Of a DNA stretch of 64,000 nt, positions 1 to 60,190 are shown piece after piece (position 1 is the first letter of the stretch; each line of letters starts with the position of its first letter). Location of the stretch: sequence record PZ171032.1; one strand, 5' to 3'. The notes beneath the pieces are model-generated. The model ran no database searches and was not told the origin of the DNA. It worked only from the letters and a program-made list of their open reading frames with translations. The translations under genes were made by a program, and so were the position numbers. This DNA is from a phage.

Positions 1-450
1 GATACCCTGATCCAAGAACAATAGATATGTGCTTTCAACACCATTGTGTACACTGATCACATCGAAAGTGTCCACCATGCTGAACGGGGCCTTTGAACCA
101 ACACCTTTATTACCCACCAGAGCGTTGCTGTTGCGCTTGGTTGACTCTCCGAGGTTCATGAAAGTGTTGCGGACCATCTCTTCTGACATGCCTAATCCAA
201 CGTCCTGCACAAAGAAGTATGGTTCAAGGTCTGTAGGAGAGTGAATGATGATCGGTACATCGCCCCGTCCAGACTCAACATGAGAGTCCACAGCATTGAA
301 GATTGGTTCACGGCAGCTTGCCAGCACCTTATCTTCGTAAATCCCTTTAATGATTAGCCCAAAAGTCTCTTTGTTCAGAGAAATTGAGCCCCTGGTGACC
401 TCCATATTTCCAGTTAGCACTGCTTTAGTTTCATTACTGTTTACAATCAT
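1..450 (-). CDS. hypothetical protein, partial (C-terminus lies beyond window start)
   Basis: Hand translation: ATG at 450-448 with AAGGAG RBS, ATGA overlap with stop of upstream gene; frame open for all 150 codons to position 1. Absent from ORF track because no stop in window. Confidence 0.5.
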   Translation of the reverse strand, partial: MIVNSNETKAVLTGNMEVTRGSISLNKETFGLIIKGIYEDKVLASCREPIFNAVDSHVESGRGDVPIIIHSPTDLEPYFFVQDVGLGMSEEMVRNTFMNLGESTKRNSNALVGNKGVGSKAPFSMVDTFDVISVHNGVESTYLLFLDQGI

Positions 451-947
451 TTATTGCGCTCCTTGTAGTAGATATGACTCCCGAATTGAGCTGTCCTCTG
501 CATCTTTTTTGCCCATTTCGGTCGTACTTTGGTCGTATGGTAGTGTGTTGCTCCACCTGTTATATCCATAGCCATGTATGCAACATGGTTGTTATTATAG
601 ACCTTTAGAAGCATCTTTGCAAGACTTTTAGCGTGATCCCATGAATCTTTTTCTGTCACCTTAAAAGTTTTGCCGTAGTTTGTCCACGAAAACTGATTAG
701 GTTGGTAGACAATCTTTCTTATAGTGTCCGGGTATTTGGGATGAGATTTCCTGTTTAGGGTGGCAAACCCAGATGCCAGCATACCCATCGTGCCATCCCC
801 TCTAGCTTCCCTGTAGATATTGCATGCTAGAATGTTTTCCTTAGTATCTGATGGCTTGCAAGTATGGTATACTTTTTGTTTTGGTGCTGCAACAACAGGC
901 AGCGATAAAAATGCGCTCAAAATAATAGCAAAGATCTTAATTTTCAC
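447..947 (-). CDS. SleB/CwlJ-like cell wall hydrolase with N-terminal signal peptide (endolysin candidate)
   Basis: 166 aa; hydrophobic N-terminus MKIKIFAIILSAFLSLPVVAAP; motifs YREARGD, TLNR, VYQPNQFS resemble the SleB (Hydrolase_2) family; GTG start with GGAG RBS. Confidence 0.65.
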   Translation of the reverse strand: MKIKIFAIILSAFLSLPVVAAPKQKVYHTCKPSDTKENILACNIYREARGDGTMGMLASGFATLNRKSHPKYPDTIRKIVYQPNQFSWTNYGKTFKVTEKDSWDHAKSLAKMLLKVYNNNHVAYMAMDITGGATHYHTTKVRPKWAKKMQRTAQFGSHIYYKERNK

Positions 948-960
948 AATGACTCCAAAT

Positions 961-983
961 AGAAAATCCCCGCCGAAGCGGGG
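961..983 (-). terminator. rho-independent terminator (hairpin CCCCGC-CGAA-GCGGGG followed by U-run on minus strand)
   Basis: Perfect 6-bp GC stem with CGAA tetraloop just downstream of stop of gene 997..1377; AUUUUCU on transcribed strand. Confidence 0.55.
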
Positions 984-996
984 GAGGTCTTAGAAA

Positions 997-1377
997 TTAA
1001 TCGTAGTGTGCCAAAATCTCTCCATCGTTGCAAGTTCCCTCTACAAAGTTATGAAGATTCATGCACTCATCTTGATAGAAGAATTTACCGCTTTTCAGCC
1101 GTAGGCCAAACAACTCCGCATCTCCACGATGGCAAGCCTCTACAAGTTCATAGATTTCATACGGCAACTCTCCGTCGTCATGGAAGAATCCAGCCTTATC
1201 GTTGACATAAATGAAGAAATAATCACTGCTATCGCAAGCGTCCAATATTTTAAACCAGATTTCATCTACATCTTTTTCTCGGATATCGATCACGCAAGTG
1301 GAGCTGCATTCGTACTCCTTCTCCGGCTCCTCGGTCAATACCACCAGGTAGTTTCCCCGCTTACCTACTTTAGCCAT
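997..1377 (-). CDS. hypothetical protein
   Basis: 126-aa ORF in codirectional operon; acidic; no recognised motif. Confidence 0.5.
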   Translation of the reverse strand: MAKVGKRGNYLVVLTEEPEKEYECSSTCVIDIREKDVDEIWFKILDACDSSDYFFIYVNDKAGFFHDDGELPYEIYELVEACHRGDAELFGLRLKSGKFFYQDECMNLHNFVEGTCNDGEILAHYD

Positions 1378-1386
1378 ACAACCCCC

Positions 1387-2571
1387 TTAAGCTTTAGCCA
1401 AAATGGCGCTAAACTCTTCACCAAACTCTTTTACAATCTTCATCAGGTTTGGGTATGCTTTGATCAACTGAGCAACAATCTTGTCACGCCCTTTACCGAT
1501 AAGCAAGGCATTTCCTAAGGCGTTAGGTTTCATCATCGCCATAAAGACTGAGAATACAAAATCTCGGTTCTCGTCCTTGAAATTTTCCCAAAGGAAATCG
1601 AGGAAGTTTGCCACACAGCTAACAAGATCTTCGTCGGAGATACTTGCATTTTCCATCATATTGCGAATAGCGATACAACCTTCAGATCCAAGAATCCACA
1701 AAATGTCTGGCTGCTTAGGACCTACGTATTCTTTGCAGCCACCTGCCATAATCCGACCGATTTCCGGTAAATTACGTTTCTTGGTGTGGTAAGTCCAGAT
1801 CTCTACCGCTGCAGTGTGACCAATAGCACCTTGTAGAAGAACACGGGCCATAGCGTCAGAAATAATACCGCTGTCAAAATCGTGCAAGATGTCAGATGCA
1901 GCAACCCAAGATCGCGGTGTGGCAAAAGATGGACAATTAATCTCAGCCATAGCCTCATAATTATCAATAGCTGAGGGAACTCTTTTCAAATATCCAATTA
2001 CAGAGGAATGCACCCCATTAAGGAATGCGTAGTCCTCAATAAACACCTCTGCATTGCTTGTAACCTCTACAATGATAAAACGGTTAGCCAGAGGGGCTTC
2101 GAGCGCCGAAAGAACCGCACCATCTGTAGAACGGTTACCCGCAGCCACAAAAACAGAACCCTTAGGGAATGCATAGGTGCCGCACTTGTGGTCAAGCATA
2201 ATTTGCATTGCAACCTTTTGCAGGTAGTTATCTGCATGAGTGAGCTCATCCAGAAAGATAATTCCGCTCCAGTCAGGATCCGCAGGCCAAAATTCTGGAA
2301 TTGCAAACACTGTACGTGTAGTTCCATCCGCTTCTACAGGGATAGGTAGCCCAGATAAGTCGGCAGGATCTTTATCTGACAGTCGCACGTCAACAAGGTT
2401 GTCATCTCGCTCACCGAACATATTATCAGCGATCTGCTTCATCACCTGGCTTTTACCCACACCCATTGGTCCCAAAATTAGGACAGATCGGCTATGACGT
2501 TGGGCAAACTGAATAATAGCTGGCAACTCACGGACAGTGATTTGACCACTTTCGAATACGTTTCTTGACAT
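1387..2571 (-). CDS. MoxR-like AAA+ ATPase
   Basis: 394 aa; Walker A LILGPMGVGKSQ, Walker B-like IIFLDELTHA, size and layout typical of AAA_5/MoxR (CobS-like) ATPases. Confidence 0.7.
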   Translation of the reverse strand: MSRNVFESGQITVRELPAIIQFAQRHSRSVLILGPMGVGKSQVMKQIADNMFGERDDNLVDVRLSDKDPADLSGLPIPVEADGTTRTVFAIPEFWPADPDWSGIIFLDELTHADNYLQKVAMQIMLDHKCGTYAFPKGSVFVAAGNRSTDGAVLSALEAPLANRFIIVEVTSNAEVFIEDYAFLNGVHSSVIGYLKRVPSAIDNYEAMAEINCPSFATPRSWVAASDILHDFDSGIISDAMARVLLQGAIGHTAAVEIWTYHTKKRNLPEIGRIMAGGCKEYVGPKQPDILWILGSEGCIAIRNMMENASISDEDLVSCVANFLDFLWENFKDENRDFVFSVFMAMMKPNALGNALLIGKGRDKIVAQLIKAYPNLMKIVKEFGEEFSAILAKA

Positions 2572-2840
2572 TAGTAAAAGTCCTCTACTTGTGTGTAAGT
2601 GTTTTCAAAGTTTTCCAAAACAGATATCACATCGAATCTGTCAATATCATACGTGACTCTCCAGTTGTACGCAACCCTTTCTGCTGTTGCCTCTTCTGGC
2701 GCTAGTCGTCTGCTGGCATAAAAGAGTGTTGGAGTACACTTTCTTGCTTGCCCTCTAACTTTCCCATAATAATATCTGTGAATATCTTTGTCAAAATTTA
2801 ACTCTTTTTCTGCACGAAGTTCATATTGCTGGTATAACAT
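2571..2840 (-). CDS. hypothetical protein
   Basis: 89-aa ORF, start overlaps stop of downstream ATPase gene (translational coupling). Confidence 0.45.
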   Translation of the reverse strand: MLYQQYELRAEKELNFDKDIHRYYYGKVRGQARKCTPTLFYASRRLAPEEATAERVAYNWRVTYDIDRFDVISVLENFENTYTQVEDFY

Positions 2841-2884
2841 CTCTACTACTCCTTAAGCAGCATCCTTGCCGCCATTCCTGCCCA

Positions 2885-3265
2885 CTAAAATGCAGTCCGA
2901 ATCCAGACAAGGTTCTTATCTGCCCAATCATAGAGGCAAGTCATTGCACTATTGAATTGCTCACACGGAGGATAATCTTCTTCCATCTGGCGCATAGCAG
3001 AGCCTTGTGGGTAAAGCTCCCGTGCTGCAAACCACGCGTCGTAGTCATCAACGGTGTCGAAGTAGTATACAACATCCTCTAACTCAGGATCGAACTTTGA
3101 ACTATCAGGATCCAGTTGTTCAGGGAACTTGGAGCGTAACTTGCCAGCTACAATACTTGCCAACTCGCTAACATGCTTATTGTCCCACTCCACTAGCTTC
3201 CCGTCTTCAGTGATGCGTCCTAACCACTGATCATGAAGGTCAACTGTTGTCTTCCACTGGGCCAT
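2885..3265 (-). CDS. hypothetical protein
   Basis: 126-aa ORF in same operon; acidic. Confidence 0.5.
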   Translation of the reverse strand: MAQWKTTVDLHDQWLGRITEDGKLVEWDNKHVSELASIVAGKLRSKFPEQLDPDSSKFDPELEDVVYYFDTVDDYDAWFAARELYPQGSAMRQMEEDYPPCEQFNSAMTCLYDWADKNLVWIRTAF

Positions 3266-3267
3266 TA

Positions 3268-3525
3268 TCAGTCCACCTCTTCTTCTCGTTGTAGTTCAAG
3301 ATACCCGTAGGTCTGGACATCTTCAAGGGTGTGGAACTCCCCATCTGCCGCTAATGCACGAACAACTTGGCACAAAACCTTATGAGGAACTTCATCCAGA
3401 CCAAGATTCAGTGCAGGGAACACCTTATCTAAGTCAACAAAATAAATGAACTGTAGCTCACCAGCTTCAAAAGGTGTATCTTCAATAAACATCTTCTCGG
3501 CATTAGTCAAGATCTGCACTTTCAT
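3268..3525 (-). CDS. hypothetical protein
   Basis: 85-aa ORF, tightly packed with neighbours. Confidence 0.45.
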   Translation of the reverse strand: MKVQILTNAEKMFIEDTPFEAGELQFIYFVDLDKVFPALNLGLDEVPHKVLCQVVRALAADGEFHTLEDVQTYGYLELQREEEVD

Positions 3526-3881: not shown

Positions 3882-3894
3882 CGGTAAGGTCTCC

Positions 3895-5069: not shown

Positions 5070-5109
5070 AAGTAAGTGCTCCTATGTTAGTTTTCTTTCG
5101 AATGGGTGC

Positions 5110-5138
5110 ACTATATTGTGGAGTTAGAGTAAAGTCAA
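5110..5138 (-). promoter_or_regulatory. sigma70-like promoter, leftward (TTGACT-17 bp-TATAGT)
   Basis: On minus strand: -35 TTGACT (plus 5133-5138), 17-bp spacer, -10 TATAGT (plus 5110-5115); upstream of gene 4170..5069. Confidence 0.55.
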
Positions 5139-7698: not shown

Positions 7699-7962
7699 AT
7701 GGCAACAGAGTTAAAATTTGCATCAAACCGTAAAACTAAGAAGTATCTGTCCTCAGTAGCTCCAGGCACTGTGGTGATGTTTGTTGATGAACTTGGGGAT
7801 GTGAATACAGCACTTGTTGTAAAATCACATCCTGCAAACATATATGTTGGGGTATTTGACCTGTTCAGAAAGGTGTTTGTAGAACTGCCTCACAGTTTGG
7901 TTGTTACAGAAATGGATGCCTGCATAGAAATTCTTGGCGAAGTTATGGTGGAGGAACAATAA
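7699..7962 (+). CDS. small protein, tandem paralog family member 1 of 4
   Basis: 87 aa; strong GAGGAGG RBS; shares K..GTVV...ILGE pattern with next genes. Confidence 0.6.
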   Translation: MATELKFASNRKTKKYLSSVAPGTVVMFVDELGDVNTALVVKSHPANIYVGVFDLFRKVFVELPHSLVVTEMDACIEILGEVMVEEQ

Positions 7963-8225
7963 TGGCTACCAGCATTGTATTCAATTCTAAGGTGAAGAAC
8001 AAAAAGCGTGCAGACAGTTTTCCGTGTGGGACCGTGGTAAGTTGCGACGGAGACGGCATTCAAAACATAGTTATGATTGTCAAAACAGGAGAACATTGTG
8101 TGTGGGGGTTCGATTTAGAAAATAATGAGTTGTACGATCTGCCGCCAAACATGAAAGTTACAGAGCTTGACACCAAAATTACCATCCTTGGAGAGACAAG
8201 CTATTCAAAAGAAGGAGGAGAATAA
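7962..8225 (+). CDS. small protein, tandem paralog family member 2 of 4
   Basis: 87 aa; ATGA start/stop overlap with member 1; GGAGG RBS; conserved CGTVV and ITILGE motifs. Confidence 0.6.
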   Translation: MATSIVFNSKVKNKKRADSFPCGTVVSCDGDGIQNIVMIVKTGEHCVWGFDLENNELYDLPPNMKVTELDTKITILGETSYSKEGGE

Positions 8226-8488
8226 TGACCACAAAAATCACTATCGCAGAACCGAAAGCTAACACTCAGCCTATCGAAAAGTTTAAGTGCGGTGAGGTGG
8301 TAACATTCACACCAGATAATGAAGATGCTAAGATTTTCGCAATGGTCACAGCTGAGTGGATGTGTGACAACACCACACAGGTTCTGCGTTTTGACACCTA
8401 TCTTACCGATGAAATCAGGAACGACAAGATTGTGACTGGTGTGGATACTGAGATTGTTTTCTACAAGAGCTTTTTAGAGGGTTTCTGA
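8225..8488 (+). CDS. small protein, tandem paralog family member 3 of 4
   Basis: 87 aa; ATGA overlap; AAGGAGG RBS; KCGEVVTF motif. Confidence 0.55.
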   Translation: MTTKITIAEPKANTQPIEKFKCGEVVTFTPDNEDAKIFAMVTAEWMCDNTTQVLRFDTYLTDEIRNDKIVTGVDTEIVFYKSFLEGF

Positions 8489-8489
8489 T

Positions 8490-8723
8490 ATGGCAAAAAT
8501 TAGAAAATTATCTAGCAATCAGGTTGTGAAAGACTTCGAATCTGGAGAGATTCTTTATGTTCGTGATGCAGATGACGAAGGTGAAGATCTCGTTATGTTG
8601 GTGGGGCACGCTGAGGACGGATGCATCCAAGCTGTTTTTCTTGAAACAGCTATGGTGCACTGGATAGAGCTGGACCTGAAAGCACGAAAACCTAAAGCAG
8701 AAATCCTGATTTACGAAGATTAA
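8490..8723 (+). CDS. small protein, tandem paralog family member 4 of 4 (divergent)
   Basis: 77 aa; GAGGG RBS; same size class, weaker similarity. Confidence 0.5.
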   Translation: MAKIRKLSSNQVVKDFESGEILYVRDADDEGEDLVMLVGHAEDGCIQAVFLETAMVHWIELDLKARKPKAEILIYED

Positions 8724-19671: not shown

Positions 19672-19938
19672 TTAAGCTTTTTGCTCTTCGTTTTTAACGT
19701 GGTCAGGGTGCTGGCAACCCCACCGGAGCGAGATGAATTTGCTAATAAGCTGGGGGCAGGCTACTGAAGGTGCATATATCCACGCATACCATTCAGGAAG
19801 CGTATCATTATACCCCATATGAATAAACACCCCAGTCATCACCGCCATGCCTATGTTCGACCATAGCTTAGATTGGGATACTTTCGTAGGGTCATCAGAT
19901 GCCGCAACCAGTCCCCATAAAAACTGAGTTAGTTTCAT
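19672..19938 (-). CDS. small putative membrane protein (holin-like topology)
   Basis: 88 aa; hydrophobic segments NIGMAVMTGVFIHMG and WYAWIYAPSVA; charged C-terminus. Confidence 0.4.
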   Translation of the reverse strand: MKLTQFLWGLVAASDDPTKVSQSKLWSNIGMAVMTGVFIHMGYNDTLPEWYAWIYAPSVACPQLISKFISLRWGCQHPDHVKNEEQKA

Positions 19939-21082: not shown

Positions 21083-21397
21083 TTACCTTTTACTATGCTC
21101 TACGAGCATGTGCAAAATCTTTTGTACATCGGCTCTGATGCCGGAGACATCTGTCCTGACATCCTGCTTAAGGTCGTTAATATCGGCCTCTAGCTTGCTT
21201 AACCGGGTCTCTATAACGGAATCAAGTTTATCTTTTGTAACCATACTGTTTTTCACTAAGATGAGGTCTTTCTCCAGCTCATCCAACCTCTTGGAAATGC
21301 CTTTCCATTTGGTGTGCCACTGGTTGAAAGCCCATACACAGATCGGGACAACGGTACCCATGCAGATACCGTACAATGCCGCCAAATCCAACTCCAC
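21083..21397 (-). CDS. membrane-anchored coiled-coil protein
   Basis: 104 aa; N-terminal hydrophobic helix ALYGICMGTVVPICVWAF then heptad-like charged region. Confidence 0.45.
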   Translation of the reverse strand: MELDLAALYGICMGTVVPICVWAFNQWHTKWKGISKRLDELEKDLILVKNSMVTKDKLDSVIETRLSKLEADINDLKQDVRTDVSGIRADVQKILHMLVEHSKR

Positions 21398-27426: not shown

Positions 27427-30400
27427 TTAGTCGTGAGACTCGTTCCAAGGTCCCTGGAAGCTTGAGTTAGAACGGCTTACTACAACAGTAGGACAGGATA
27501 TTGCGACCCCTGTTACAGAAGACGTTGACCATGGTGTGTAGATTTCAACAACAATATCTATGGTTTGTTCACCAAGACCTGTTATCCCTACCGCACACAT
27601 GCCGTTGTTGTCGTTTCCGTACTTCTTACCTGCAAGGATTTGATGTCCGGCTATCCAAACGTTGAGCTGGGAGCTGGCAAGAGTACCATTCAGTTTAAAG
27701 AAGAATGTTACGTTCTTACCCTGACCTGAAACGTTATCTACGTATCTCCACCTCCAACGGCAAACCCTTTGCTGGGAGTTATATACTGGAGCACAATCCC
27801 CATAAGTCCTGTGTGCAACAATTGCACCTTCGAACTGGTTAGCGCGGATAACAGAAGCTTCTACACGACCACGGAAGGTACCTCCGGTTGCGTCTATGGT
27901 GCCTCTAAAGCTACCATTATTGGCATAAACATCCCCACGGAAGGTACCACTAGTGGCGTTAACTGCCCCTGTGAAGTTACCAGAACTGGCGTTGATGTTG
28001 CCTTTCACCCACACATCCATAAATTGGGCGTGCCCGTTCTTGTTAATATACCAACCGTATTTATGGTACCCGTTGCCATCGTAGTTGTTTGACGAAATTT
28101 CTTGTGCGATCTTGGCAGAGGAGATCGTGCCATTCTCTATAAAAGCGTCTTTCAAGAATGCTTGGTTGTTCTTGATTGCGAAAGCAAGGGTTGCTGTTCC
28201 ATTGCCTGGGTTGTATACCGCAAAATTGTTTGCACTAACCATGAAGTAGGATTGAACTTGGCCCCCAGACCCTTCCATCCCCAACTGGATACCTGCAACA
28301 TATTTATTCCCTGCGGAGTCTACCTGTATTTTTGTGCCCCACTGAGCATTTACTTTACCCTCTAAGTCGGTTACAGCCTTAGATGTTGTAGCTACTGCAG
28401 CCCTGATCTCGGACACATCCCCAACACCATCAATGATCTCCTGCTTAGCAACGGCAAGTTCTTGACGAATAGCTGACGCTGTGCCGTTAATCAGATCAAC
28501 AGTGGCGTTATTAGTTTCAGAAATATTCGCAGACAAGTCTTTCTTCGTCTGAGTCAGCTTATTGTCCAACCCAGTAATATTATTGGTGTTGGTTGTAATC
28601 TGCCCTTTAGCAGTGGTTAACTGCTCAGTCAAAGCTGCCGTTTTCTGATTCAACAGGTCAGTTGTGGCCTTGTTGGTGGTAGAAATCAACGTATTAAGAT
28701 CAGACTTGGCGGTGTTTATCTTACCATCAAGCGTGGTGTAGTTTTTGGACACTGTGGCGTTGGTCTGGCTAATCTTCTGGTCAAGAGTCTCAGAAGTTCT
28801 GTTCAGCAAGTCCACAGTGGCCTGGTTAGTGCTCAGAATGCTCGCATCCAACTCAGATCTTTGAGTATTCAACTTGCCCTCTAGGCTCTTATCACCAGCC
28901 AGATAGCCTTTTTCAACATCTCCGATCTGCTCAGTCAACTCGCCCTGTGCAGCAACCAGTTTTTCATCCAACGCCTCTGTTTTCTTATTAAGAAGATCAG
29001 TGGTGGATTTGTTGGTTGACTCAATCAAGGATGATAGTTTAGCACTCTCATTCTGCAGGTTGTTGGTCAACTCACCTTTCGTTGCTGTCAGCTTGCTGTC
29101 TAAAGCCTCGGTTTTCCGATTAAGGAGATCTGTAGTCGTTTTATTGGTTGATACAATCAGAGAGTTCAGCTCAGAGCTTTCCTGTGCTAAAGCATCTTCC
29201 AATTCACCCCTTGTTGAAACAATCTTCTCGTCCAAAGCTTCAGTTTTCTGATTTAACAGATCGGTTGTAGCTTTGTTAGTGGTCTGGATTAGAGAAGTCA
29301 ACTTGCCACTTTCTTTAGAAAGATCATTTGCAAACTTATTCTGAGTGGCTACCAGTTTCTGGTCTAGAGTGGTAAGCGTTCCATTAACGTCCTGGAAGTT
29401 GTCGTGGGTTTCTTGGATGAATATTCCAACCCTATCCCCCAACTGAGCATACAGCTTGTCTACTCTAGAGAACTCACCTTCCATGTGGTCAAAAGCCTCG
29501 TCAACTCTACCATCCATGTACCTGTTAAGTTCTGTGACACGATTTTCAACCTCTTCAATAGAGGAATCCAAAGTGCTCATCAACTCTTTATAAGTTTCTG
29601 TCTTTTTGAATTCAGCATCTATCTGAGGCATCAAATCCTCGATAGAGGTGTAGCAGCGTGCAGCGCATTCTACAAACTGAGAGCTACCAAAAGCGTTTGT
29701 GGTTCTAATATACCAATAATAAACCTTATCGTTCTGCAGGCCTTCAGATGTCCAAGTTGAACCAACACCCATACGGGTGGCGTTTGAAGTAACGGTTGCA
29801 TCACTGGTGTCGGGCAACCTTGTCATACCAGATGTCCAAAAGTCATACTGGGTGCTTACACTTGCTAAATCCCTGCTGTGTGGAATCAAGGTGATAGCAA
29901 AGTATCCCTGCTTAACCTCTACAGAAACAGGAGCTTCAGGTGCCTGAATGTTAAACTCGCAGTACGCTTCTGGAGATACACCACCTTTATAAGATGTTGC
30001 AACCACGGTTGCTGTGTATGATCCTTTGGTCAAGCCTTCTACTCGGACAAACTGCTCAACTGTCTGTGCTGTCCAAACAATCTCTCCGTTCTTTCTTACC
30101 TGTACAATATTTTGAGCGTAAGTTCCAACGTTGTCCCAAGCCAAAACACCGTGAGTTACTTCTCCGGCTTGGAGAACGGAATATCTGAAGTTTTGCGGTT
30201 GAGCTACACCAGATGGAGATATCGGAATATCTACATTGCCAGAATCCGGAAGTTGCCCTGTGGCATCATTCCACTCTTTAGCATCTTGACGAAGTTTTAC
30301 CTTGACACCACCCTTTTTGGTAAACTCCCATTCAAGAACCCTCATTTCTTGGCCCACTATACCAATACTTGGAAGGTTCATTGTAACGTAACGACCAGGT

Positions 30401-31572
30401 TTAAATTTAAAACCTCGCATATTGCAGGTGACTTCAATAATCCTGCCAGCTCTAGCGCGTCTTAAGAAGATTGCAGAAACACGCTGAGCTTGATAAGGAC
30501 TGGTAACAAAGCGATAGTCTATATCGATTATCTTTCTTTCTCCATCCTTCTCTATCCACTCTGGGACAAACACTGATGGAAAATCTGTTTCAGAATACCC
30601 TTTGGTCGGACTAGTGAATCTGCCAGTTATTGTGTTGGATCTTTTGTCAAATGAGGCTTCCGGATAGATCTTGACCTCACCACAGACACAATCCTCACTC
30701 AGCGTCATTGTTGCCGGGCCATAGTATGCACCAACCAGCAAACCATACTTACCAGCTACATAGCTGAGATCTGCGCCACAAGCTTTCAGCATTTCTGCCA
30801 TAATGCTTGCCGGAGCCTCGTCCATGTCAAACTCGCCATTAATGGTGTATCGGCGCTCACTGGTTCCGTCTGCGTTTTTTACCGCCTCGTCGCATATGTT
30901 AGCAGCCTCCTTGAAGGACTCCCAGTTGATGGTTTCGTCAGGACATTTAAGGTACGTTCTTAAATAGTCTAGAATCACCAAGGACGCGTTATTGGTATAC
31001 ACCTCTTTACTGATGCGAGGATCATAGCATTTTTTACCAACCTTGACGAGTGTAACGTTTGGCAACCCAAAAGGAAACTTGTTAGGGTCGAACTTGAAGC
31101 TGGCACGTAGCCAACTGATCCCTCTACCTATCATGTCTGGTGACCACGATGGGCAGTGTGTCCCCATGAAAGGATCAGCCGTTTTTCTGTCGTTATGTAA
31201 CTCCCACGATACCAAATCTCCATACGAGGAAATAGGATTACCATCGACAAGTATATCTTCTATACCTTCCAGAGGGTGATTGGCAAGAACAATAGCACAA
31301 TGGAGGGTTTTGTCTCTATCCTGCTCCAAAAACGCAAGCAATCCAGATGTGCGTGTCTTTCCATACACTACAGAGCAAGGTGCAGCAGAAGATCTGAGAA
31401 GCTTTTGTCTATCTTGCTGACTTCTGTAAGATTTGTTGCCCTCAAAAATCTTATCCAGAGTTCTGGTGGTAACAGTGTTCAGGCTGTCAGCCAGAGCTGC
31501 CTTGGATGCGTTCCAGTCATAACTTGAAGATCTTGCAGAAGCAACGATGTTATCAATCATTGCAATTGGCAT
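27427..31572 (-). CDS. lambda J-like host specificity / central tail fibre protein with coiled-coil repeat insertion
   Basis: 1381 aa; segments GYFAITLIPH, YYWYIRTTNAFGSSQFVE and WGTKIQVDSAGNKYVAGIQLGMEG match recalled lambda J motifs ([52 protein letters not shown]); about 330 aa of ~41-aa tandem repeats inserted. Confidence 0.75.
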   Translation of the reverse strand: MPIAMIDNIVASARSSSYDWNASKAALADSLNTVTTRTLDKIFEGNKSYRSQQDRQKLLRSSAAPCSVVYGKTRTSGLLAFLEQDRDKTLHCAIVLANHPLEGIEDILVDGNPISSYGDLVSWELHNDRKTADPFMGTHCPSWSPDMIGRGISWLRASFKFDPNKFPFGLPNVTLVKVGKKCYDPRISKEVYTNNASLVILDYLRTYLKCPDETINWESFKEAANICDEAVKNADGTSERRYTINGEFDMDEAPASIMAEMLKACGADLSYVAGKYGLLVGAYYGPATMTLSEDCVCGEVKIYPEASFDKRSNTITGRFTSPTKGYSETDFPSVFVPEWIEKDGERKIIDIDYRFVTSPYQAQRVSAIFLRRARAGRIIEVTCNMRGFKFKPGRYVTMNLPSIGIVGQEMRVLEWEFTKKGGVKVKLRQDAKEWNDATGQLPDSGNVDIPISPSGVAQPQNFRYSVLQAGEVTHGVLAWDNVGTYAQNIVQVRKNGEIVWTAQTVEQFVRVEGLTKGSYTATVVATSYKGGVSPEAYCEFNIQAPEAPVSVEVKQGYFAITLIPHSRDLASVSTQYDFWTSGMTRLPDTSDATVTSNATRMGVGSTWTSEGLQNDKVYYWYIRTTNAFGSSQFVECAARCYTSIEDLMPQIDAEFKKTETYKELMSTLDSSIEEVENRVTELNRYMDGRVDEAFDHMEGEFSRVDKLYAQLGDRVGIFIQETHDNFQDVNGTLTTLDQKLVATQNKFANDLSKESGKLTSLIQTTNKATTDLLNQKTEALDEKIVSTRGELEDALAQESSELNSLIVSTNKTTTDLLNRKTEALDSKLTATKGELTNNLQNESAKLSSLIESTNKSTTDLLNKKTEALDEKLVAAQGELTEQIGDVEKGYLAGDKSLEGKLNTQRSELDASILSTNQATVDLLNRTSETLDQKISQTNATVSKNYTTLDGKINTAKSDLNTLISTTNKATTDLLNQKTAALTEQLTTAKGQITTNTNNITGLDNKLTQTKKDLSANISETNNATVDLINGTASAIRQELAVAKQEIIDGVGDVSEIRAAVATTSKAVTDLEGKVNAQWGTKIQVDSAGNKYVAGIQLGMEGSGGQVQSYFMVSANNFAVYNPGNGTATLAFAIKNNQAFLKDAFIENGTISSAKIAQEISSNNYDGNGYHKYGWYINKNGHAQFMDVWVKGNINASSGNFTGAVNATSGTFRGDVYANNGSFRGTIDATGGTFRGRVEASVIRANQFEGAIVAHRTYGDCAPVYNSQQRVCRWRWRYVDNVSGQGKNVTFFFKLNGTLASSQLNVWIAGHQILAGKKYGNDNNGMCAVGITGLGEQTIDIVVEIYTPWSTSSVTGVAISCPTVVVSRSNSSFQGPWNESHD
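28450..29480 (-). repeat. in-frame tandem ~123-nt (41-aa) coiled-coil repeats inside J-like gene (7-8 units, approximate bounds)
   Basis: Protein repeats of the form LxSLIxSTNKxTTDLLNxKTEALDxKLxxAxGEL between about aa 700 and 1040. Confidence 0.6.
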
Positions 31573-55365: not shown

Positions 55366-55420
55366 GTGGATTATTTTATCACGCCAAAGGAGGTTTTGCA
55401 ACCCCCTGTGTTGATAATTT

Positions 55421-56977
55421 TTAATTTTCCATGTTGGATATGGAATTATCTCTGGTTGATGACATCTTAGAAGTGCCGTTGCCAGTGGATCCTGCAGCCA
55501 TTCCATCACCAGCCCTACTGATGTCCTGGCCCAAGAGCTTCATCAGCTCTTCCTGATCCATGTCCTCGTCAAATCTTTCATCAAACCCGCCTACTTCAAG
55601 AATCTTATTAATTACTGCAGGAGTTTTTGGCAAGTAACCTACAGCACCGATCCTCTGGACAAACTTGGAGAAGCTCTCCATATCCACTTCTTCAATCAGA
55701 CCAGGTTTCAGTTTAGGCATATCATCATCTTCAAGGATGATACCATTCAATGCCAGAAGCTGCGGAATAAGATCTTTATTGAAGGCCTCAGTGATAATAT
55801 CTATATCACGCTGAACAAAATGACCATGGATAGACTGTTTTGACTCAGACAGAGAGAAGGACCCAACGTTATCGTTACCGAGGTTAATAAAGCCAGCACC
55901 GAAACGGTCAAGAATCGCCTTCTTACGGGCATCAATCAAATCTTTAGTGGAATACTGCTTACCCATACCGTCAACCCCCTTCAGGGTCATGGAGTAAAGC
56001 TCTTTACCAGACTTATCTCTATCAGACGGAAGTATAAAGAAACTTTGCTCACCACTATGGGCGTTTGCTGCGTCAAGCATAAGGTCTGCAACCATTCTCC
56101 CTTCCATTGAATTCGGGTCAATGCTGGCCTTGTTCAAAATATTGGAAGGAATTTTCAGCTCAAGCACACCACCAAGGTCTTTGGAACAGCCAACAACCTC
56201 AAGGTTTTCAATCAGAACTTTCTCACGGAAAGATCTGTAGCAACCTATCATCGGTGACACACCTGCAGGGTTAGATTCTGTTCCTGACAGGGTCATGAGC
56301 ATAAGCTTTTTAGCAGGGATGAAAATTTCAGGCTCATTAAAGCCTTTTGAAGGCATTGCAGCAAGAGGTCCAGCCCAGCGTGCATTCTGAGTGTTTAGAA
56401 ATGCATTAGGTGATTGATAAATACCTGTCAGTGTTCTACTATTCTTGTCAAAGACAAACGGCTCTGATCTGGACAAACTGGCCTGAGGTCGGAATGCAAT
56501 TTTATCAATAAGAAGCATCCCGGCATATTTACCTTCTTTCTCTCTGCGGTATACTTTCTCAAACAGTGAAAAACCATACTCGTTAAAGGTAGCTGCACTT
56601 CTTGCAATATCTCGAAGAGTTTGTTGGTTTGCCAAATTACGCAAAGAATACTCTATAAGCTCGGCAGCTTTCTTAGAGTCTTCACTTTTAACATTATAAA
56701 GGATCTTAAAATCATTAAATGCTTTCGTGATGAAAACATATTTTGTATCTAAGGCAGTAGCAACTGTGGAATCACATTTCATAGTCTCCACTGTAGCAAT
56801 CAGCTGAGGCCAACGCAATTCCTCAACCATCATAGATTGCGATTCTGCCATAATTTGGGAAAGTGCGCCAGAACCGATCTCACTCATACGAACATTATGA
56901 GTTGGTGCGCCTGCGTTCCCAGATTTATTCACAGTTTTGGCTGTGGCGTTGTGTTTCCTGCGGTTCTTTTTGGACAC
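55421..56977 (-). CDS. portal protein
   Basis: 518 aa; immediately downstream of terminase large subunit; basic N-terminus, acidic C-terminus. Confidence 0.7.
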   Translation of the reverse strand: MSKKNRRKHNATAKTVNKSGNAGAPTHNVRMSEIGSGALSQIMAESQSMMVEELRWPQLIATVETMKCDSTVATALDTKYVFITKAFNDFKILYNVKSEDSKKAAELIEYSLRNLANQQTLRDIARSAATFNEYGFSLFEKVYRREKEGKYAGMLLIDKIAFRPQASLSRSEPFVFDKNSRTLTGIYQSPNAFLNTQNARWAGPLAAMPSKGFNEPEIFIPAKKLMLMTLSGTESNPAGVSPMIGCYRSFREKVLIENLEVVGCSKDLGGVLELKIPSNILNKASIDPNSMEGRMVADLMLDAANAHSGEQSFFILPSDRDKSGKELYSMTLKGVDGMGKQYSTKDLIDARKKAILDRFGAGFINLGNDNVGSFSLSESKQSIHGHFVQRDIDIITEAFNKDLIPQLLALNGIILEDDDMPKLKPGLIEEVDMESFSKFVQRIGAVGYLPKTPAVINKILEVGGFDERFDEDMDQEELMKLLGQDISRAGDGMAAGSTGNGTSKMSSTRDNSISNMEN

Positions 56978-57077
56978 AAGCTTTACCCCTCAAAACAGTA
57001 TAACAAAATAGCCCTCGTCAGAGGGCTAGTATCTCCAATTACTTTATTGTACCACATCTAATTAAGATTGGCAACAC

Positions 57078-58166
57078 TTAGATAAAACGCTTGAACATAG
57101 AAGGTGATGAGATTGATGGAATCACACAAGGAAGTGCTACCTCCTCTTTCTCCAGGAAATTAATCGCAGAAGCTACACAGTCGGCCCAGTCGTCTTTTCT
57201 GTTAAATGTTGATCTTTCCCCGTTGAATTTTTCAAGTTCAGTCAGAAATGCTTCCAGAGTATCAGGATGGAAACTGGATTTTACAATCCTCACCATCCCT
57301 TGTTGGGCAAGATTGGCAAAAGGTGAGAACCTTGTCAGTTTAGATTTGTTGGAAGGCATTGGGTCTTCTTCAACCCTAAACCCTTCGGCGAGCAAGGATC
57401 TGGAGGAGGTTAAGAACTCACTCTTACCTGCCTGACCGGGGTCCACAGAGAATACGATTATACAATCATCACCATCAAACTGCGCCTGTTTCCTGATGAT
57501 CACATCTCGTTCACCAGCCTTTTTACAGAACTTACCTTCCAGACCTGTGGAATACCTCCCGTCATCCACGTTCTCAGGACAATAATCACCGGACAGGTAA
57601 TAAAAGCCGTCGCTATCTTTACTTACCTTAACACTGGCGGTAAAGTCAGGAAATTTATTACCGGAAGTTCTCTCGGTTCCTGCCTTATCCCATGCCCTAC
57701 AAGATACTGATCCAAGGGGTACTCTATCGGCATCACGAAGGAAAGATCTTTGAAAATAGTTTGCACCCTCAGGCTTTGCAAACCAGTTACCATGGAGAAG
57801 CTGAGCTTTTTCCAGCTCTGGTAGACCTTCGAGGAAAGCAAGGTATTCTGGGTTGTCTCTCAAACAGACAGGATTATCGAATATTGTTGCGCCTATGAAC
57901 GAGAATGACAACGGTCTTGGCTTGATCTCTACGCCAAGTCCGTTAACCGTGGTGTATTTCTCTATCAACTCTTCTTTAGAATCTCCCCAGATAAATTCAC
58001 CGTCGCGTCGGATAAAATATCTTTTCTTACCGCATTTCTCCGGGTCTGGATACCCTTCATCGTCCAACCACCATCTAACCAGTTTGGCAAGCATGTGCTC
58101 TGAATCGGGGTTACAGCTGATAACCATTCTTGATGGATACTTTGACTGAGATCGCAGACGAGACAT
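57078..58166 (-). CDS. terL: terminase large subunit, exon 2 (C-terminal nuclease domain)
   Basis: Begins RMVISCNP (coupling-motif-like) and has Asp-rich RNase H-like nuclease region; frame open upstream of first Met back to about 58195, so the true exon boundary precedes the annotated Met. Confidence 0.7.
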   Translation of the reverse strand: MSRLRSQSKYPSRMVISCNPDSEHMLAKLVRWWLDDEGYPDPEKCGKKRYFIRRDGEFIWGDSKEELIEKYTTVNGLGVEIKPRPLSFSFIGATIFDNPVCLRDNPEYLAFLEGLPELEKAQLLHGNWFAKPEGANYFQRSFLRDADRVPLGSVSCRAWDKAGTERTSGNKFPDFTASVKVSKDSDGFYYLSGDYCPENVDDGRYSTGLEGKFCKKAGERDVIIRKQAQFDGDDCIIVFSVDPGQAGKSEFLTSSRSLLAEGFRVEEDPMPSNKSKLTRFSPFANLAQQGMVRIVKSSFHPDTLEAFLTELEKFNGERSTFNRKDDWADCVASAINFLEKEEVALPCVIPSISSPSMFKRFI

Positions 58167-58169
58167 CAG

Positions 58170-59084
58170 GTAGTCTATCTGCTCCCATTCGAACTGTGTC
58201 GTTTATGTTCGGGCAAGGTCGCTAGTCTTGCCCCGCCATTTTCAGGCAGCTGCATGTCTCCATGCAGACCAGACTATATCTTATGAATGTGCAAATACTC
58301 TGCCGCTCTAAGAATAGTTTCCTCATCCTCTTGGAAGAAACCTAAAGCTCTGTTGCATTTATCACAAAGCAACCCTCTTACAGCACCAGTTTTATGGTCA
58401 TGATCAACACAAAAGAAATCTCTGTACCCTTGCGTCCTATACTCATCAAGAGATATTCTACAAATGGCACACTTATGATCTTGATCTGAGAGTAGACGAT
58501 AGTATTCATCTTTTGTTATGTGAAATTTCTTCTCAATCTGATAAAACTTTTCACACATCTTACACCTGTTCGTAACCAGATATACTTTACCATAGTCACG
58601 TTTTGTGTAAAAACTATCAGCGAGCATACTTTCATGACAAGATTTGCATTCAAAAAGTTCACCTTTCTTCAGCAAGTCTTGAATAAATAATGCTGCGTCA
58701 TCTCTCTTAACCATATTTTTGTTTCTACGAGATCCACCCTTCCTGTAGTACATATAGCATTCCTTGCATGTACCTGAGTATCCATCCTTGCTCTTAGATG
58801 ATAAAAAGAAATCATCAATAGGTAGAACTCTTTGGCAATCCATACATTTTTTAGTATTACACATTCACCCTCCCGTTTCGAATCGCTTGATTCTACGTCT
58901 TTCGACTAGTCGTTGAACGTTCATCCTCTCGGATGCTTCGCTGCGGATTATCTAAATTAACACACTGTTACCATACCTTCGATCTCTCTTCGAAGCCTCT
59001 GTCATGTTACCATGACAGGTTGGTGGTGTCAATAATAAAGATTTCCCCGCAATTAGGGAGGTTTTACGAGAGCTACAAATTAAC
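58170..59084 (-). mobile_element. group I intron interrupting terminase large subunit gene (approximate bounds)
   Basis: In-frame stop right after Walker B (FDEG*) at 59080; about 0.9 kb gap with free-standing HNH ORF; candidate P7 strands GACUAGUC (plus 58904-58911) and UAGUCUGG (plus 58269-58276) in transcript orientation; P9-like hairpin GCATG-GAGA-CATGC. Confidence 0.6.
58274..58864 (-). CDS. intron-encoded HNH (endonuclease VII-like) homing endonuclease
   Basis: 196 aa; C-terminal CAICRISLDEY...CVDHDHKTGAVRGLLCDKCNRALG closely parallels recalled T4 endonuclease VII core (CLICQ...DHDH...VRGLLCNLCNAAEG); N-terminal CxxC zinc-finger pairs; GGGAGGG RBS. Confidence 0.7.
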   Translation of the reverse strand: MCNTKKCMDCQRVLPIDDFFLSSKSKDGYSGTCKECYMYYRKGGSRRNKNMVKRDDAALFIQDLLKKGELFECKSCHESMLADSFYTKRDYGKVYLVTNRCKMCEKFYQIEKKFHITKDEYYRLLSDQDHKCAICRISLDEYRTQGYRDFFCVDHDHKTGAVRGLLCDKCNRALGFFQEDEETILRAAEYLHIHKI

Positions 59085-59508
59085 CCTCATCGAAGCAAAC
59101 CATGGTGTACTCAAGCCCCTGATGGTTAAGCTTATCTTGTACATACTCCATGTGGCAGTATTTTACAACAGCTCCCTTTTTGCTTCTATCCCACTTACCA
59201 GTGTTCGGATCAAACCGTGGAAAAATGAACTTATGATCCTTCTCTCTGAACTTTGGCTTAATGTTTTCAGGCAGATCACTATAAATAGCTACTGCTTTAG
59301 GCCATAGTCCACCCTCACCTTCCAACTGTGGGGTTGTTCTTCGGAACATAACCACAGAGCTGTGGGGGTCATCAATAATTTTAAGTGGCATCAACTGCAA
59401 GAGGAACGACTTGCCAGACCCTGCGGCACCGCCGATTACCAAAATATCTGCATCGTTTTCTAGGATCATCTTCTGCTTTTCAGAACACGGTCCGTAAATC
59501 TTAGACAT
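59080..59508 (-). CDS. terL: terminase large subunit, exon 1 (N-terminal ATPase domain)
   Basis: Walker A VIGGAAGSGKS, Walker B YTMVCFDEG; ends at stop inside intron. Confidence 0.7.
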   Translation of the reverse strand: MSKIYGPCSEKQKMILENDADILVIGGAAGSGKSFLLQLMPLKIIDDPHSSVVMFRRTTPQLEGEGGLWPKAVAIYSDLPENIKPKFREKDHKFIFPRFDPNTGKWDRSKKGAVVKYCHMEYVQDKLNHQGLEYTMVCFDEG

Positions 59509-59795
59509 TAACCTCTCTCCTTTGGAAACAGTGTTCTAATATAGTCTTGCAAAATGATCAATTTAGCTCTATCATTGCTACAAGACAGATTATTATCCCT
59601 CATAATGCCAGAATTCACTGCATCTGGCGCACCTTTCTTCAAAGGCATAGCTTTAGCAGGTGGTTTCATGGCACCTTCCGGGGGTTTAACAATCAACCTT
59701 CCTACATCCGGAGGGTCAATCTTGTATTCTCTCTCAACGCTGGTTGCACACCCACATAATAACAAGCACACAATAAACAGTGTAGCAACTCTCAT
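59508..59795 (-). CDS. o-spanin (Rz1-like outer-membrane lipoprotein)
   Basis: 95 aa; signal plus lipobox-like LLLCGC; Pro-rich mature region. Confidence 0.6.
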   Translation of the reverse strand: MRVATLFIVCLLLCGCATSVEREYKIDPPDVGRLIVKPPEGAMKPPAKAMPLKKGAPDAVNSGIMRDNNLSCSNDRAKLIILQDYIRTLFPKERG

Positions 59796-60190
59796 CTACC
59801 CTCCTGATTAATACTCTCATTATAAATATCTATAAGCTGATCAGGGAGTGTTGACTTCTTACCCTCAGGTGACTGGAGGTAAATAATCTGCTTTTCTTTA
59901 CCTGCCTTCTCAGCCATATTTAATTTATCCTGTAGATCAGAAAGGGATTTTTCAAGGTTTTTAACCTCCTCTGCGTGGCCCATTTTAATTTTGTCGGCCT
60001 GCTTTTGTTGCTGATCAAGGATCCGTTCCCACTTTAACTCTGTTGCTGACACACCTTCTTGGTAGGCATCATTAAGCTTAGAGTTAAACCAATACACGGC
60101 CCCAAGATAAGCTGTACCTATCGCAGCTGCAAAAACTAAACCTTTTATGATCCCTCTATACCTGCTCAGCCATGTTAAAACTGAAATCAT
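59792..60190 (-). CDS. i-spanin (Rz-like)
   Basis: 132 aa; N-terminal TM helix LVFAAAIGTAYLGAVYWF then charged coiled-coil; stop overlaps o-spanin start. Confidence 0.6.
   Translation of the reverse strand: MISVLTWLSRYRGIIKGLVFAAAIGTAYLGAVYWFNSKLNDAYQEGVSATELKWERILDQQQKQADKIKMGHAEEVKNLEKSLSDLQDKLNMAEKAGKEKQIIYLQSPEGKKSTLPDQLIDIYNESINQEGR

What the first reader, a model, noticed from the sequence alone, without database searches (positions are those of the whole stretch)
447..60190. Split lysis functions: signal-peptide SleB-like hydrolase at the left end, spanins ~59 kb away, no obvious holin beside either
The only recognisable muralytic enzyme has a secretory or SAR-like N-terminus and lies at 447..947. 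The i-/o-spanin pair lies at 59508..60190 next to the terminase. No canonical holin is adjacent to either; the small membrane proteins at 19672..19938 and 21083..21397 inside the fibre cluster are the only candidates. This could indicate holin-independent export of the endolysin or a dispersed lysis cassette.
Basis: inference. Interest (0 to 1): 0.4.

Follow-up and report, generated by a model that had tools for sequence, protein, structure and literature searches.

The report
Scattered lysis genes of rV5-like coliphage
The window is part of an rV5-like E. coli phage whose cell-bursting genes are scattered around the genome, a layout already described for this phage group, and the main wall-digesting enzyme lies just outside the window, so the finding is real but ordinary.

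Summary
447..947(-) encodes a 166-aa SleB/Hydrolase_2-domain enzyme with a classic Sec signal peptide, not a SAR domain. 59792..60190(-) and 59508..59795(-) encode an i-/o-spanin pair beside the first terminase exon. No holin-like gene flanks either locus.

The window is 98-99% identical to rV5-like phages (Vequintavirus). These carry a lambda-R-type cytoplasmic endolysin about 6.4 kb beyond the window's right end, so "only muralytic enzyme" is a window-edge effect.

The layout is published: Kropinski 2013 (rV5: lysin gp89, putative holin gp129 far away), Buttimer 2020 (SleB-like with signal peptide in all Vequintavirinae, spanins next to TerL, no cassette), and the LL12 and Gotham announcements (holin not identified).

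The exported SleB-like enzyme also occurs in T5 (T5.083), which has a complete holin-endolysin-spanin set elsewhere. It is therefore most likely an accessory periplasmic hydrolase. It sits with rIIA/rIIB in the early/replication transcription unit.

The two small proteins in the fibre cluster remain unproven holin candidates. One has one clear TMD and a Mu-releasin-like architecture without detectable homology. The other is only weakly hydrophobic.

Verdict: already known, low interest. Holin identity and the role of the secreted hydrolase remain open.

The parts
447..947 (-). rV5 gp2 orthologue. It is an exported SleB-type (Hydrolase_2) peptidoglycan hydrolase of 166 aa, with a signal peptide at residues 1-20/21 (nt 885..947) and a catalytic domain at about residues 38-162 (nt 462..836). 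The catalytic Glu is E47.
   Evidence: Pfam PF07486 at 69.5 bits. PDB SleB 4F55/4FET alignment. AF2 pLDDT 88 plus Foldseek match to 4F55. E47 and Y45 are invariant in 11 homologues, all of which carry export signals.
968..983 (-). Intrinsic terminator hairpin (6 G-C pairs plus a T-run). It ends about 20 nt upstream of the GTG start of the hydrolase gene and suggests attenuated read-through expression.
   Evidence: sequence; annotated as a terminator in Murica.
1..450 (-). 5' part of rIIA, cut by the window edge. Its ATG overlaps the hydrolase stop codon (ATGA), so the two genes are co-transcribed and probably translationally coupled. rIIB and a helicase follow in relatives.
   Evidence: The order SleB-like -> rIIA -> rIIB -> helicase also holds in PVP-SE1.
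59792..60190 (-). i-spanin (rV5 gp67 orthologue), 132 aa, with a TMD at about residues 14-35 and a helical periplasmic domain.
   Evidence: PHROG 4297 Rz-like spanin at E 1.5e-49; hydropathy; listed as the rv5 spanin family by Kongari 2018.
59508..59795 (-). o-spanin (rV5 gp66 orthologue), 95 aa. It has the lipobox L13-C14-G15-C16 and a Pro-rich mature part with one further Cys (C72).
   Evidence: PHROG 1267 Rz-like spanin at E 1.3e-22; sequence.
59080..59508 (-). First exon of the large terminase (Walker A motif GGAAGSGKS), directly downstream of the o-spanin gene.
21083..21397 (-). rV5 gp31 orthologue, 104 aa. It has 4 N-terminal residues, one TMD (residues 5-24) and about 80 aa of predicted cytoplasmic helical domain. 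It lies directly after the tail-fibre assembly gene. It is an unproven lysis-regulator or holin candidate.
   Evidence: KD 1.91; listed with 1 TMD in rV5 Table S3; family alignment; no holin or DUF2730 hit.
19672..19938 (-). rV5 gp29 orthologue, 88 aa, lying between two tail-fibre genes. It is a weakly hydrophobic helical protein with a charged C-terminal tail. It is a weak holin candidate.

Best explanation
The window is about 64 kb of an rV5-like myovirus (Vequintavirus). This phage group lyses its host with a T4-style, physically dispersed multigene system.

Two components lie inside the window. The first is the two-component spanin next to TerL, which disrupts the outer membrane as the last step of lysis. 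The second is gp2, a SleB-catalytic-domain peptidoglycan hydrolase that the Sec system exports to the periplasm and that signal peptidase I most likely cleaves.

Two components lie outside the window. One is a lambda-R-type cytoplasmic endolysin about 6.4 kb to the right. The other is a still unidentified holin that must let this endolysin out. The published candidate is rV5 gp129, a 2-TMD protein about 22 kb beyond the endolysin.

gp2 is best read as an accessory periplasmic wall hydrolase rather than the phage's endolysin. It sits behind a strong terminator, uses a GTG start and is coupled to rIIA/rIIB in the sigma70-driven leftward early/replication unit. The same exported enzyme is kept by T5-like phages that own a complete canonical lysis set.

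Shown here: the identities, domains, export signals, gene order and distribution. Inferred: the timing of expression, signal-peptide cleavage, low expression level and accessory role.
For: Identity with rV5-like phages: 98-99% over both ends of the window.

Whole-genome annotation of Murica and rV5: the gene order is gp2 -> rIIA -> rIIB -> helicase -> replication genes. The GH24 endolysin lies at Murica 70326..70796. The Murica endolysin protein is encoded unchanged (100% identity) in the closest relative, rV5_ev146, at 73401..73868, while the window ends at about 67042 of that record.

The endolysin is 62-63% identical to lambda R and has no N-terminal hydrophobic segment.

gp2 domain, catalytic Glu and fold.

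Export signal: present in all 11 aligned homologues, including T5.083 (MKAALLLVAALTFSFSSQA|SHD), PcCB7V and PVP-SE1.

T5 carries holin T5.041 plus lys T5.040 plus spanins T5.044/045 at 20-23 kb, and the SleB-like T5.083 at 42.3 kb among early promoters.

Terminator, GTG start and ATGA overlap with rIIA. No late-promoter-like TGGTAAAATA motif lies upstream of gp2, while copies sit before several structural genes.

Literature:
- rV5 lysin gp89, putative holin gp129 and transcription units (PMC3606486).
- SleB-like with signal peptide in all Vequintavirinae, toxic on expression, spanins next to TerL, no classic cassette (PMC7344957).
- Holin not identified in LL12 or Gotham.
- gp2 was not detected in rV5 virions by MS.
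Against: No experiment on any rV5-like phage assigns a lysis phenotype to gp2, gp89, gp129, gp29 or gp31.

The SleB-like gene is the muralytic gene conserved across all Vequintavirinae genera, whereas the 'canonical' endolysin is swapped between relatives: the best tblastn match to the Murica endolysin in phiWec193 is only 51% identical, and CB7 has a T5-type peptidase instead. That pattern could mean gp2 is the core lysin.

In Certrevirus a 2-TMD ORF overlaps the SleB-like gene like a holin partner.

The source genome beyond 64 kb was not seen, so the presence of the GH24 endolysin is inferred from relatives.

Early timing is inferred from gene order and predicted promoters only.
Confidence: 0.7

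Rival explanations
1. gp2 is a genuine Sec-exported endolysin, analogous to Lys44 of Oenococcus phage fOg44. It accumulates in the periplasm in a restrained state. It is unleashed when a small membrane protein collapses the proton-motive force. That protein could be a pinholin-like gp29, gp31 or gp129. The lambda-R-type enzyme would be a redundant, exchangeable second lysin.
For: The Sec signal is conserved in every homologue examined. The gene is conserved in all Vequintavirinae genera while the other lysin varies. The CB7 homologue is toxic when expressed in E. coli, and in Certrevirus it is overlapped by a 2-TMD ORF. Two conserved Cys residues (C30, C42) flank the catalytic helix, which is compatible with a periplasmic disulfide (inference).
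Against: T5 keeps the same exported enzyme far from its functional holin-endolysin cassette. The gene sits in the early/replication unit behind a terminator and has no late-promoter-like motif. PMF-gated activity of a freely soluble periplasmic lysin has, to my knowledge, precedent only in Gram-positive hosts. No partner membrane gene adjoins gp2 in rV5-like phages or PVP-SE1.
Confidence: 0.17
2. gp2 has no role in terminal lysis. It is an early periplasmic peptidoglycan-remodelling enzyme. Possible roles are envelope conditioning, superinfection or competitor control, or support of rII-type membrane functions. It would be expressed together with rIIA/rIIB.
For: It is translationally coupled to rIIA. 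The order SleB-like -> rIIA -> rIIB is conserved in Seunavirus. The T5 homologue lies among early promoters. Features suggesting low expression are present: a GTG start and an upstream terminator.
Against: No known precedent or assay exists. Certrevirus keeps the gene but lacks rIIA/B. T5.083 scored 'Not Fit' in CRISPRi-ART, but so did T4 e, so that screen is blind to such enzymes.
Confidence: 0.13

Closest known systems
Escherichia phage rV5 / Vequintavirus lysis gene set (Kropinski et al. 2013; Buttimer et al. 2020; LL12 and Gotham genome announcements)
   Same: The genes are orthologous at 98-99% identity and in the same positions: gp2 cell-wall hydrolase upstream of rIIA, gp67/gp66 spanins next to the intron-split TerL, and gp29/gp31 in the fibre cluster. 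There is no cassette and the holin is unidentified.
   Different: Nothing of substance. This phage has a longer central fibre (1381 aa) and its own arrangement of the terminase intron and endonuclease.
Phage T4 dispersed lysis genes (e, t, pseT.3/pseT.2, rI, rIII, rIIA/B)
   Same: The endolysin, holin and spanin genes lie in separate places. The spanins are of the 'separated' architecture. rIIA/rIIB are present. T4's holin t lies just after tail-fibre gene 38, as gp31 lies just after the fibre-assembly gene here.
   Different: No homologue of T4 T or T5 holin was found. T4 has no exported SleB-type enzyme.
Phage T5 ORF T5.083 (PHROG 938) beside the T5 holin/EndoT5/spanin cassette
   Same: It has the same Hydrolase_2 catalytic domain, the same kind of Sec signal peptide, a location in the early region far from the lysis cassette, and an unknown function.
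   Different: Identity is 35-40%. T5's holin and endolysin are adjacent and recognised. The Cys positions differ.
Sec-exported endolysin Lys44 (phage fOg44) and SAR endolysin/pinholin systems (P1 Lyz, phage 21 R21/S21 68)
   Same: A muralytic enzyme reaches the periplasm without holin holes.
   Different: gp2's leader is strongly hydrophobic, Gly-free and has a cleavage-type motif, so it is not a SAR domain. No adjacent pinholin exists. The Lys44 precedent is from a Gram-positive host.
Phage Mu gp25 releasin (DUF2730; Chamblee et al. 2022)
   Same: gp31 has the same architecture: about 4 residues outside, one N-terminal TMD, a helical cytoplasmic domain of about 75-80 aa, roughly 100 aa in total, and a late gene.
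   Different: No detectable homology (BLASTP E 0.04 for a single comparison, hhalign probability 3%, no Pfam DUF2730 hit in 9 family members). It is not near any endolysin gene. No SAR endolysin client is present.
Bacillus SleB spore-cortex lytic transglycosylase
   Same: The catalytic-domain fold and the catalytic Glu are shared.
   Different: gp2 lacks the N-terminal PG-binding domain and scores 47 bits against a cut-off of 236.5 for the SleB equivalog model. The host has no muramic-lactam cortex.

Membership tests
Hydrolase_2 / SleB catalytic-domain family (PF07486) | Profile match above the curated cut-off | tested here: met
   69.5 bits against a cut-off of 27, covering residues 51-161.
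Hydrolase_2 / SleB catalytic-domain family (PF07486) | Catalytic glutamate in the Y-x-E-[AS]-R-G-[ED] motif | tested here: met
   E47 in YREARGD aligns with YGESRGE of 4F55/4FET. It is invariant in 11 homologues.
Hydrolase_2 / SleB catalytic-domain family (PF07486) | SleB catalytic-domain fold | tested here: met
   AF2 pLDDT 88. Foldseek against 4F55/4FET gives probability 1.0 and target TM-score 0.74-0.78.
Bona fide SleB (TIGR02869 equivalog) | Full-length match including the N-terminal PG-binding domain | tested here: not met
   47 bits against a cut-off of 236.5. Only profile positions 83-201 are matched.
Sec-exported (signal peptidase I) protein | Basic n-region, hydrophobic h-region, and small residues at -3/-1 | tested here: met
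   MKIK / IFAIILSAFLSLP / VVA|A. KD19 is 2.29 and summed dG is +1.75. This was judged by inspection; no trained predictor was available.
Sec-exported (signal peptidase I) protein | Actual export and cleavage | not testable with these tools
   Needs expression, fractionation or N-terminal sequencing.
SAR endolysin | Weakly hydrophobic, Gly/Ala/Ser-rich, uncleaved N-terminal TMD | tested here: not met
   The h-region has 10 of 17 strongly hydrophobic residues, no Gly, and a cleavage-type motif.
Two-component spanin | [quoted passage not shown] | tested here: met
   TMD at about residues 14-35. PHROG 4297 at E 1.5e-49.
Two-component spanin | o-spanin with a lipobox and a lipidated Cys | tested here: met
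   L13-C14-G15-C16. PHROG 1267 at E 1.3e-22.
Two-component spanin | Adjacent, embedded or overlapping gene pair | tested here: met
   The 4-nt overlap is at 59792..59795. The pair is listed in the 'separated' class as the rv5 family.
Two-component spanin | Periplasmic Cys for homotypic disulfides | tested here: inconclusive
   The o-spanin has one mature Cys (C72). The i-spanin has none.
Holin (functional class), gp31 at 21083..21397 | Small protein with at least 1 TMD, late gene, and homology to a described holin family | tested here: inconclusive
   One TMD is present and the gene lies in the late fibre operon. There is no Pfam, PHROG or NCBIfam holin hit. The predicted N-out/C-in topology with a cytoplasmic domain is atypical for a holin.
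Holin (functional class), gp29 at 19672..19938 | [quoted passage not shown] | tested here: inconclusive
   Charged, variable C-terminal tails are present. The best segment reaches only KD 1.05 and dG +5.8. The rV5 authors' TMHMM/Phobius scan lists no TMD for it. There is no holin family hit. The AF2 model has low confidence.
Releasin (DUF2730, Mu gp25), gp31 | Membership of PF10805 or significant similarity to Mu gp25 | tested here: not met
   No DUF2730 hit at E<=1 in 9 family members. hhalign probability is 3-4%. BLASTP E is 0.04 for a single comparison.
Releasin (DUF2730, Mu gp25), gp31 | [quoted passage not shown] | tested here: not met
   It lies about 20 kb from gp2 and more than 45 kb from the R-type endolysin position.
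Classic holin-endolysin-spanin cassette | Lysis genes contiguous | tested here: not met
   In Murica the four loci are about 58, 10 and 22 kb apart going rightward, and the SleB-like gene and the holin candidate are about 45 kb apart the other way round.

The most novel reading that the evidence does not exclude
Exported SleB-type transglycosylases of the gp2/T5.083 type (PHROG 938) could form a second, holin-hole-independent lysis route shared by rV5-like, phAPEC8-like and T5-like virulent phages. In rV5-like phages this route would be gated by the conserved small membrane proteins hidden in the tail-fibre operon. gp29 would act as a weakly hydrophobic pinholin-like protein. gp31 would act as a releasin-like membrane-tethered cytoplasmic protein. 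That would explain why no holin has ever been recognised in this group.
Probability: 0.1. Interest if true: 0.55.

Novelty: already known. Interest (0 to 1): 0.2.

Why it matters
As found, it matters little. It re-derives from raw sequence what the rV5, CB7, LL12, Gotham and BME3 papers already state.

Two open points remain, both of practical interest because rV5-like phages are used in biocontrol and therapy cocktails. The first is which protein is the holin of this large phage group. The second is what a Sec-exported SleB-type wall hydrolase does in phages that already own a cytoplasmic endolysin. That enzyme is conserved from T5 to rV5 and occurs in about 1260 phage records.

A methodological point also follows. 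A claim of 'only enzyme' or 'no holin' made on a 64-kb window of a 137-kb genome can be a window-edge artefact.

Tried and rejected
(1) SAR reading of the gp2 leader. Rejected on composition and hydropathy.

(2) Other muralytic domains in the window. Pfam scans of 12 tail, baseplate and fibre proteins, including the tape-measure protein, found none.

(3) Homologues of the T5 holin, T5 lysin, T5 spanins, T5.039 and PVP-SE1 gp43 in the window and in the complete Murica genome. phmmer with --max found nothing significant.

(4) PHROG scan of ten small TMD proteins from the rest of the Murica genome. This included the 68-aa protein just downstream of the endolysin and the gp129-like protein. All fall in 'unknown function' families and none is a holin family. 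NCBIfam found none either.

(5) gp31 as a Mu-releasin homologue. The architecture matches but homology is not supported. An exhaustive HMMER search of 1.84 billion representatives gave only 13 relatives, none annotated.

(6) gp31 as a second i-spanin. There is no similarity to the i-spanin, and the positive-inside rule puts its C-domain in the cytoplasm.

(7) rV5 gp3 against T5.084 as a conserved two-gene module with the SleB-like gene. No similarity was found.

(8) CRISPRi-ART fitness data as evidence for redundancy of T5 lys and T5.083. Both are 'Not Fit'. This was rejected because guides against T4 e, an essential sole endolysin, are also 'Not Fit'.

(9) AF2 model of gp29. Confidence was too low (pLDDT 59) for a fold search.

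(10) Transcriptomic data for Vequintavirinae. None was found in the library. The PVP-SE1 paper is not held.

Full report
**What the window is.** Both ends of the window match rV5-like coliphages (genus Vequintavirus) at 98-99% identity over their full length. The closest records are rV5_ev146, Murica, CM1 and HdK5. Gene order is colinear with Murica and rV5. The leftward genes run from rIIA and the cell-wall hydrolase to gene 10. A short rightward block follows. Then comes the long leftward structural block of fibres, baseplate, tail, head, portal, intron-split TerL, spanins, tRNAs and a few small genes. The window therefore covers roughly rV5 genes 1 to about 77 of a genome of about 137 kb.

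**Checking the observation.** The ORF at 447..947(-) encodes 166 aa from a GTG start preceded by GGAG. It matches Pfam Hydrolase_2 well above threshold and PHROG 938 'endolysin'. It aligns to the crystal-structure sequences of the SleB catalytic domain with the catalytic Glu retained (E47 in YREARGD against YGESRGE). An AlphaFold model (pLDDT 88) retrieves only those SleB structures. It is not a full SleB: the NCBIfam equivalog model scores 47 bits against a cut-off of 236.5 and matches the C-terminal domain only.

The N-terminus MKIK-IFAIILSAFLSLP-VVA|A has the three regions of a Sec signal peptide. It has a very hydrophobic core (KD19 2.29), no glycine and a -3/-1 V/A motif. That is unlike the Gly/Ala-rich, uncleaved SAR domains, so 'secretory' is supported and 'SAR-like' is not.

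The spanin pair is also as described. The 132-aa product has an N-terminal TMD and a helical remainder. The 95-aa product has lipobox L-C-G-C16 and a proline-rich mature part. Each hits an Rz-like spanin PHROG strongly. The genes overlap by 4 nt and abut the first TerL exon. The rv5 spanins are already catalogued as 'separated'-architecture families (Kongari 2018).

The flanking genes have no TMD. These are gp3 and rIIA around the hydrolase, and the acidic 89-aa gp68 and TerL around the spanins. No Pfam, PHROG or NCBIfam holin family is hit by any candidate. Pfam scans of 12 structural proteins found no other muralytic domain in the window.

**The window-edge effect.** Complete relatives encode a 156-aa GH24 endolysin that is 62-63% identical to lambda R and has no hydrophobic leader. 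The Murica endolysin protein is encoded unchanged (100% identity) in the closest relative, rV5_ev146, at 73401..73868. The window's last base corresponds to about 67042 of that record, so the gene lies about 6.4 kb outside. A local search confirms that the window has no copy. 'The only recognisable muralytic enzyme' is therefore true of the window and not of the phage. A cytoplasmic endolysin implies a hole-forming holin somewhere.

**What is already published.**
- Kropinski et al. 2013 named rV5 gp89 the 'obvious lysin'. They found no holin homologue and proposed gp129 (78 aa, 2 TMDs, basic C-terminus) as a putative holin separated from the lysin 'as in T4'. They listed gp2 as a cell-wall hydrolase, gp31 and gp67 as 1-TMD membrane proteins, and gp29 without a TMD.
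- Buttimer et al. 2020 stated the following. The SleB-like protein has homologues in all Vequintavirinae genera and carries a signal peptide. It was toxic on expression in E. coli. The spanins of CB7, rV5 and PVP-SE1 sit next to the large terminase rather than in a cassette. Holin identification is therefore difficult. In Certrevirus a 65-aa 2-TMD ORF overlaps the SleB-like gene.
- The LL12 and Gotham announcements say the holin could not be identified. The BME3 and KPP-1 papers say much the same for relatives.

The finding therefore re-derives a known description.

**What gp2 most likely is.** Three lines of evidence argue that it is an accessory exported hydrolase and not the phage's endolysin.

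First, distribution. tblastn finds the family in 1263 phage records. These include Vequintavirinae, phAPEC8-like phages, Pakpunavirus and T5-like phages. T5.083 is a 149-aa homologue with a textbook signal peptide (MKAALLLVAALTFSFSSQA|SHD). Yet T5 has an adjacent holin-endolysin pair and spanins 20 kb away. All 11 homologues aligned carry an export signal: a signal peptide, a possible lipoprotein signal or a TM anchor. Y45 and E47 are invariant.

Second, context. The gene's stop overlaps the rIIA start (ATGA). rIIB, a helicase and the replication genes follow, and the same order holds in PVP-SE1. Kropinski assigns this to the leftward unit 10-1-238-164, driven by sigma70-type promoters. The T4-late-like motif TGGTAAAATA is enriched in the window: 18 matches at up to one mismatch against 6 expected. 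It precedes several structural genes but not gp2.

Third, signs of low expression. The gene has a GTG start, and a strong terminator ends about 20 nt upstream.

None of this is functional proof. Against the accessory view, gp2 is the conserved muralytic gene of the subfamily, while the other lysin is exchanged between relatives.

CRISPRi-ART data on T5 cannot be used. T5.083 and lys are both 'Not Fit' while the holin is 'Fit'. However, guides against T4 e, an essential sole endolysin, are also 'Not Fit'.

**Holin candidates.** In the window, gp31 (21083..21397) has one solid TMD. By the positive-inside rule it is oriented N-out/C-in with an 80-aa helical cytoplasmic domain. It follows the fibre-assembly gene, much as T4 t follows gene 38. 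This architecture is the same as that of the Mu gp25 releasin (99 aa, four periplasmic residues, cytoplasmic domain). Homology is not supported: BLASTP E 0.04, hhalign probability 3-4%, and no DUF2730 hit in nine family members. An exhaustive search found only 13 relatives.

gp29 (19672..19938) is conserved in 369 phage records and always lies among fibre or baseplate genes. It has a variable, highly charged C-terminal tail, which is a holin-like trait. It is only weakly hydrophobic, and its structure model has low confidence. In PVP-SE1 the two orthologues flank a 4-TMD protein, forming a three-gene membrane cluster.

Outside the window, the gp129-like protein has two strong TMDs and a basic tail. 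It is confined to the genus and is nowhere annotated as a holin in the records listed. No homologue of the T5 (T4 T-type) holin exists in the genome. The holin remains unidentified.

**Verdict.** The cassette is dispersed, and only the accessory hydrolase is exported without a holin. The phage also has a standard cytoplasmic endolysin just outside the window. The arrangement is already known, so interest is low. The residual open questions are the identity of the holin and the role of the exported SleB-type enzyme shared with T5.

Noticed in passing
window 57078..59508 (-): The large terminase gene is split. Its exons lie at 57078..58166 and 59080..59508, and an endonuclease ORF (58274..58864) sits between them. 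The layout differs from Murica, where TerL is annotated as one ORF, and resembles the intron-containing TerL of rV5 and LL12.
   Followed up: partly
window 60612..61553 (-): A cluster of six tRNA genes lies just upstream of the spanins. One is a 99-nt ARAGORN call with a four-base anticodon (60857..60955), which Murica annotates as 'tRNA-OTHER'.
   Followed up: no
window 63919..64000: A perfect 21-bp tandem repeat (GTGTCCGTATCACGGACAGTA, 3.9 copies) runs off the right end of the window. Each unit contains an inverted repeat.
   Followed up: no
window 7699..8723 (+): Four tandem small ORFs (87, 87, 87 and 77 aa) are diverged paralogues, 15-38% identical to the first. Their function is unknown.
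   Followed up: partly
window 27427..31572 (-): The central fibre (J-like) protein is 1381 aa here, against 1199 aa in Murica and 1279 aa in rV5. It is a likely host-range variable region.
   Followed up: no
window 21083..21397 (-); L012:3219-3518: gp31 has the same size, topology and domain layout as the phage Mu releasin gp25 (DUF2730), but no significant sequence similarity.
   Followed up: yes
L010 (PVP-SE1 28033..28817): In PVP-SE1 the orthologues of gp31 and gp29 flank a 157-aa protein with four TMDs. This forms a three-gene membrane-protein cluster directly after the tail-fibre assembly gene. In rV5-like phages a fibre gene occupies the middle position.
   Followed up: partly
window 594..622 (-): A sigma70-like promoter match (TTGCAA-17-TATAAT, 10 of 12) lies inside the hydrolase gene. 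It could give rIIA its own promoter, leaving gp2 dependent on terminator read-through. Promoter-like matches are not above the shuffle expectation in this region.
   Followed up: no
L002:20860-21066 (Murica 70860..71066, outside the window): The 68-aa ORF immediately downstream of the lambda-R-type endolysin has an N-terminal hydrophobic, lipobox-like leader (FMAAC) and four Cys residues. It falls in a PHROG of unknown function. It may be a lipoprotein rather than a holin.
   Followed up: partly
search results: About 16-21 GenBank records named 'Campylobacter phage' (MG0656xx) match this E. coli phage type. Those listed are about 98-99% identical. They are probably mislabelled or contaminant assemblies.
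   Followed up: no
L007:3520-3730 (PcCB7V): The 2-TMD ORF that overlaps the SleB-like gene in CB7 appears frameshifted in the PcCB7V record. It reads as 19 aa in one frame and continues in another.
   Followed up: no
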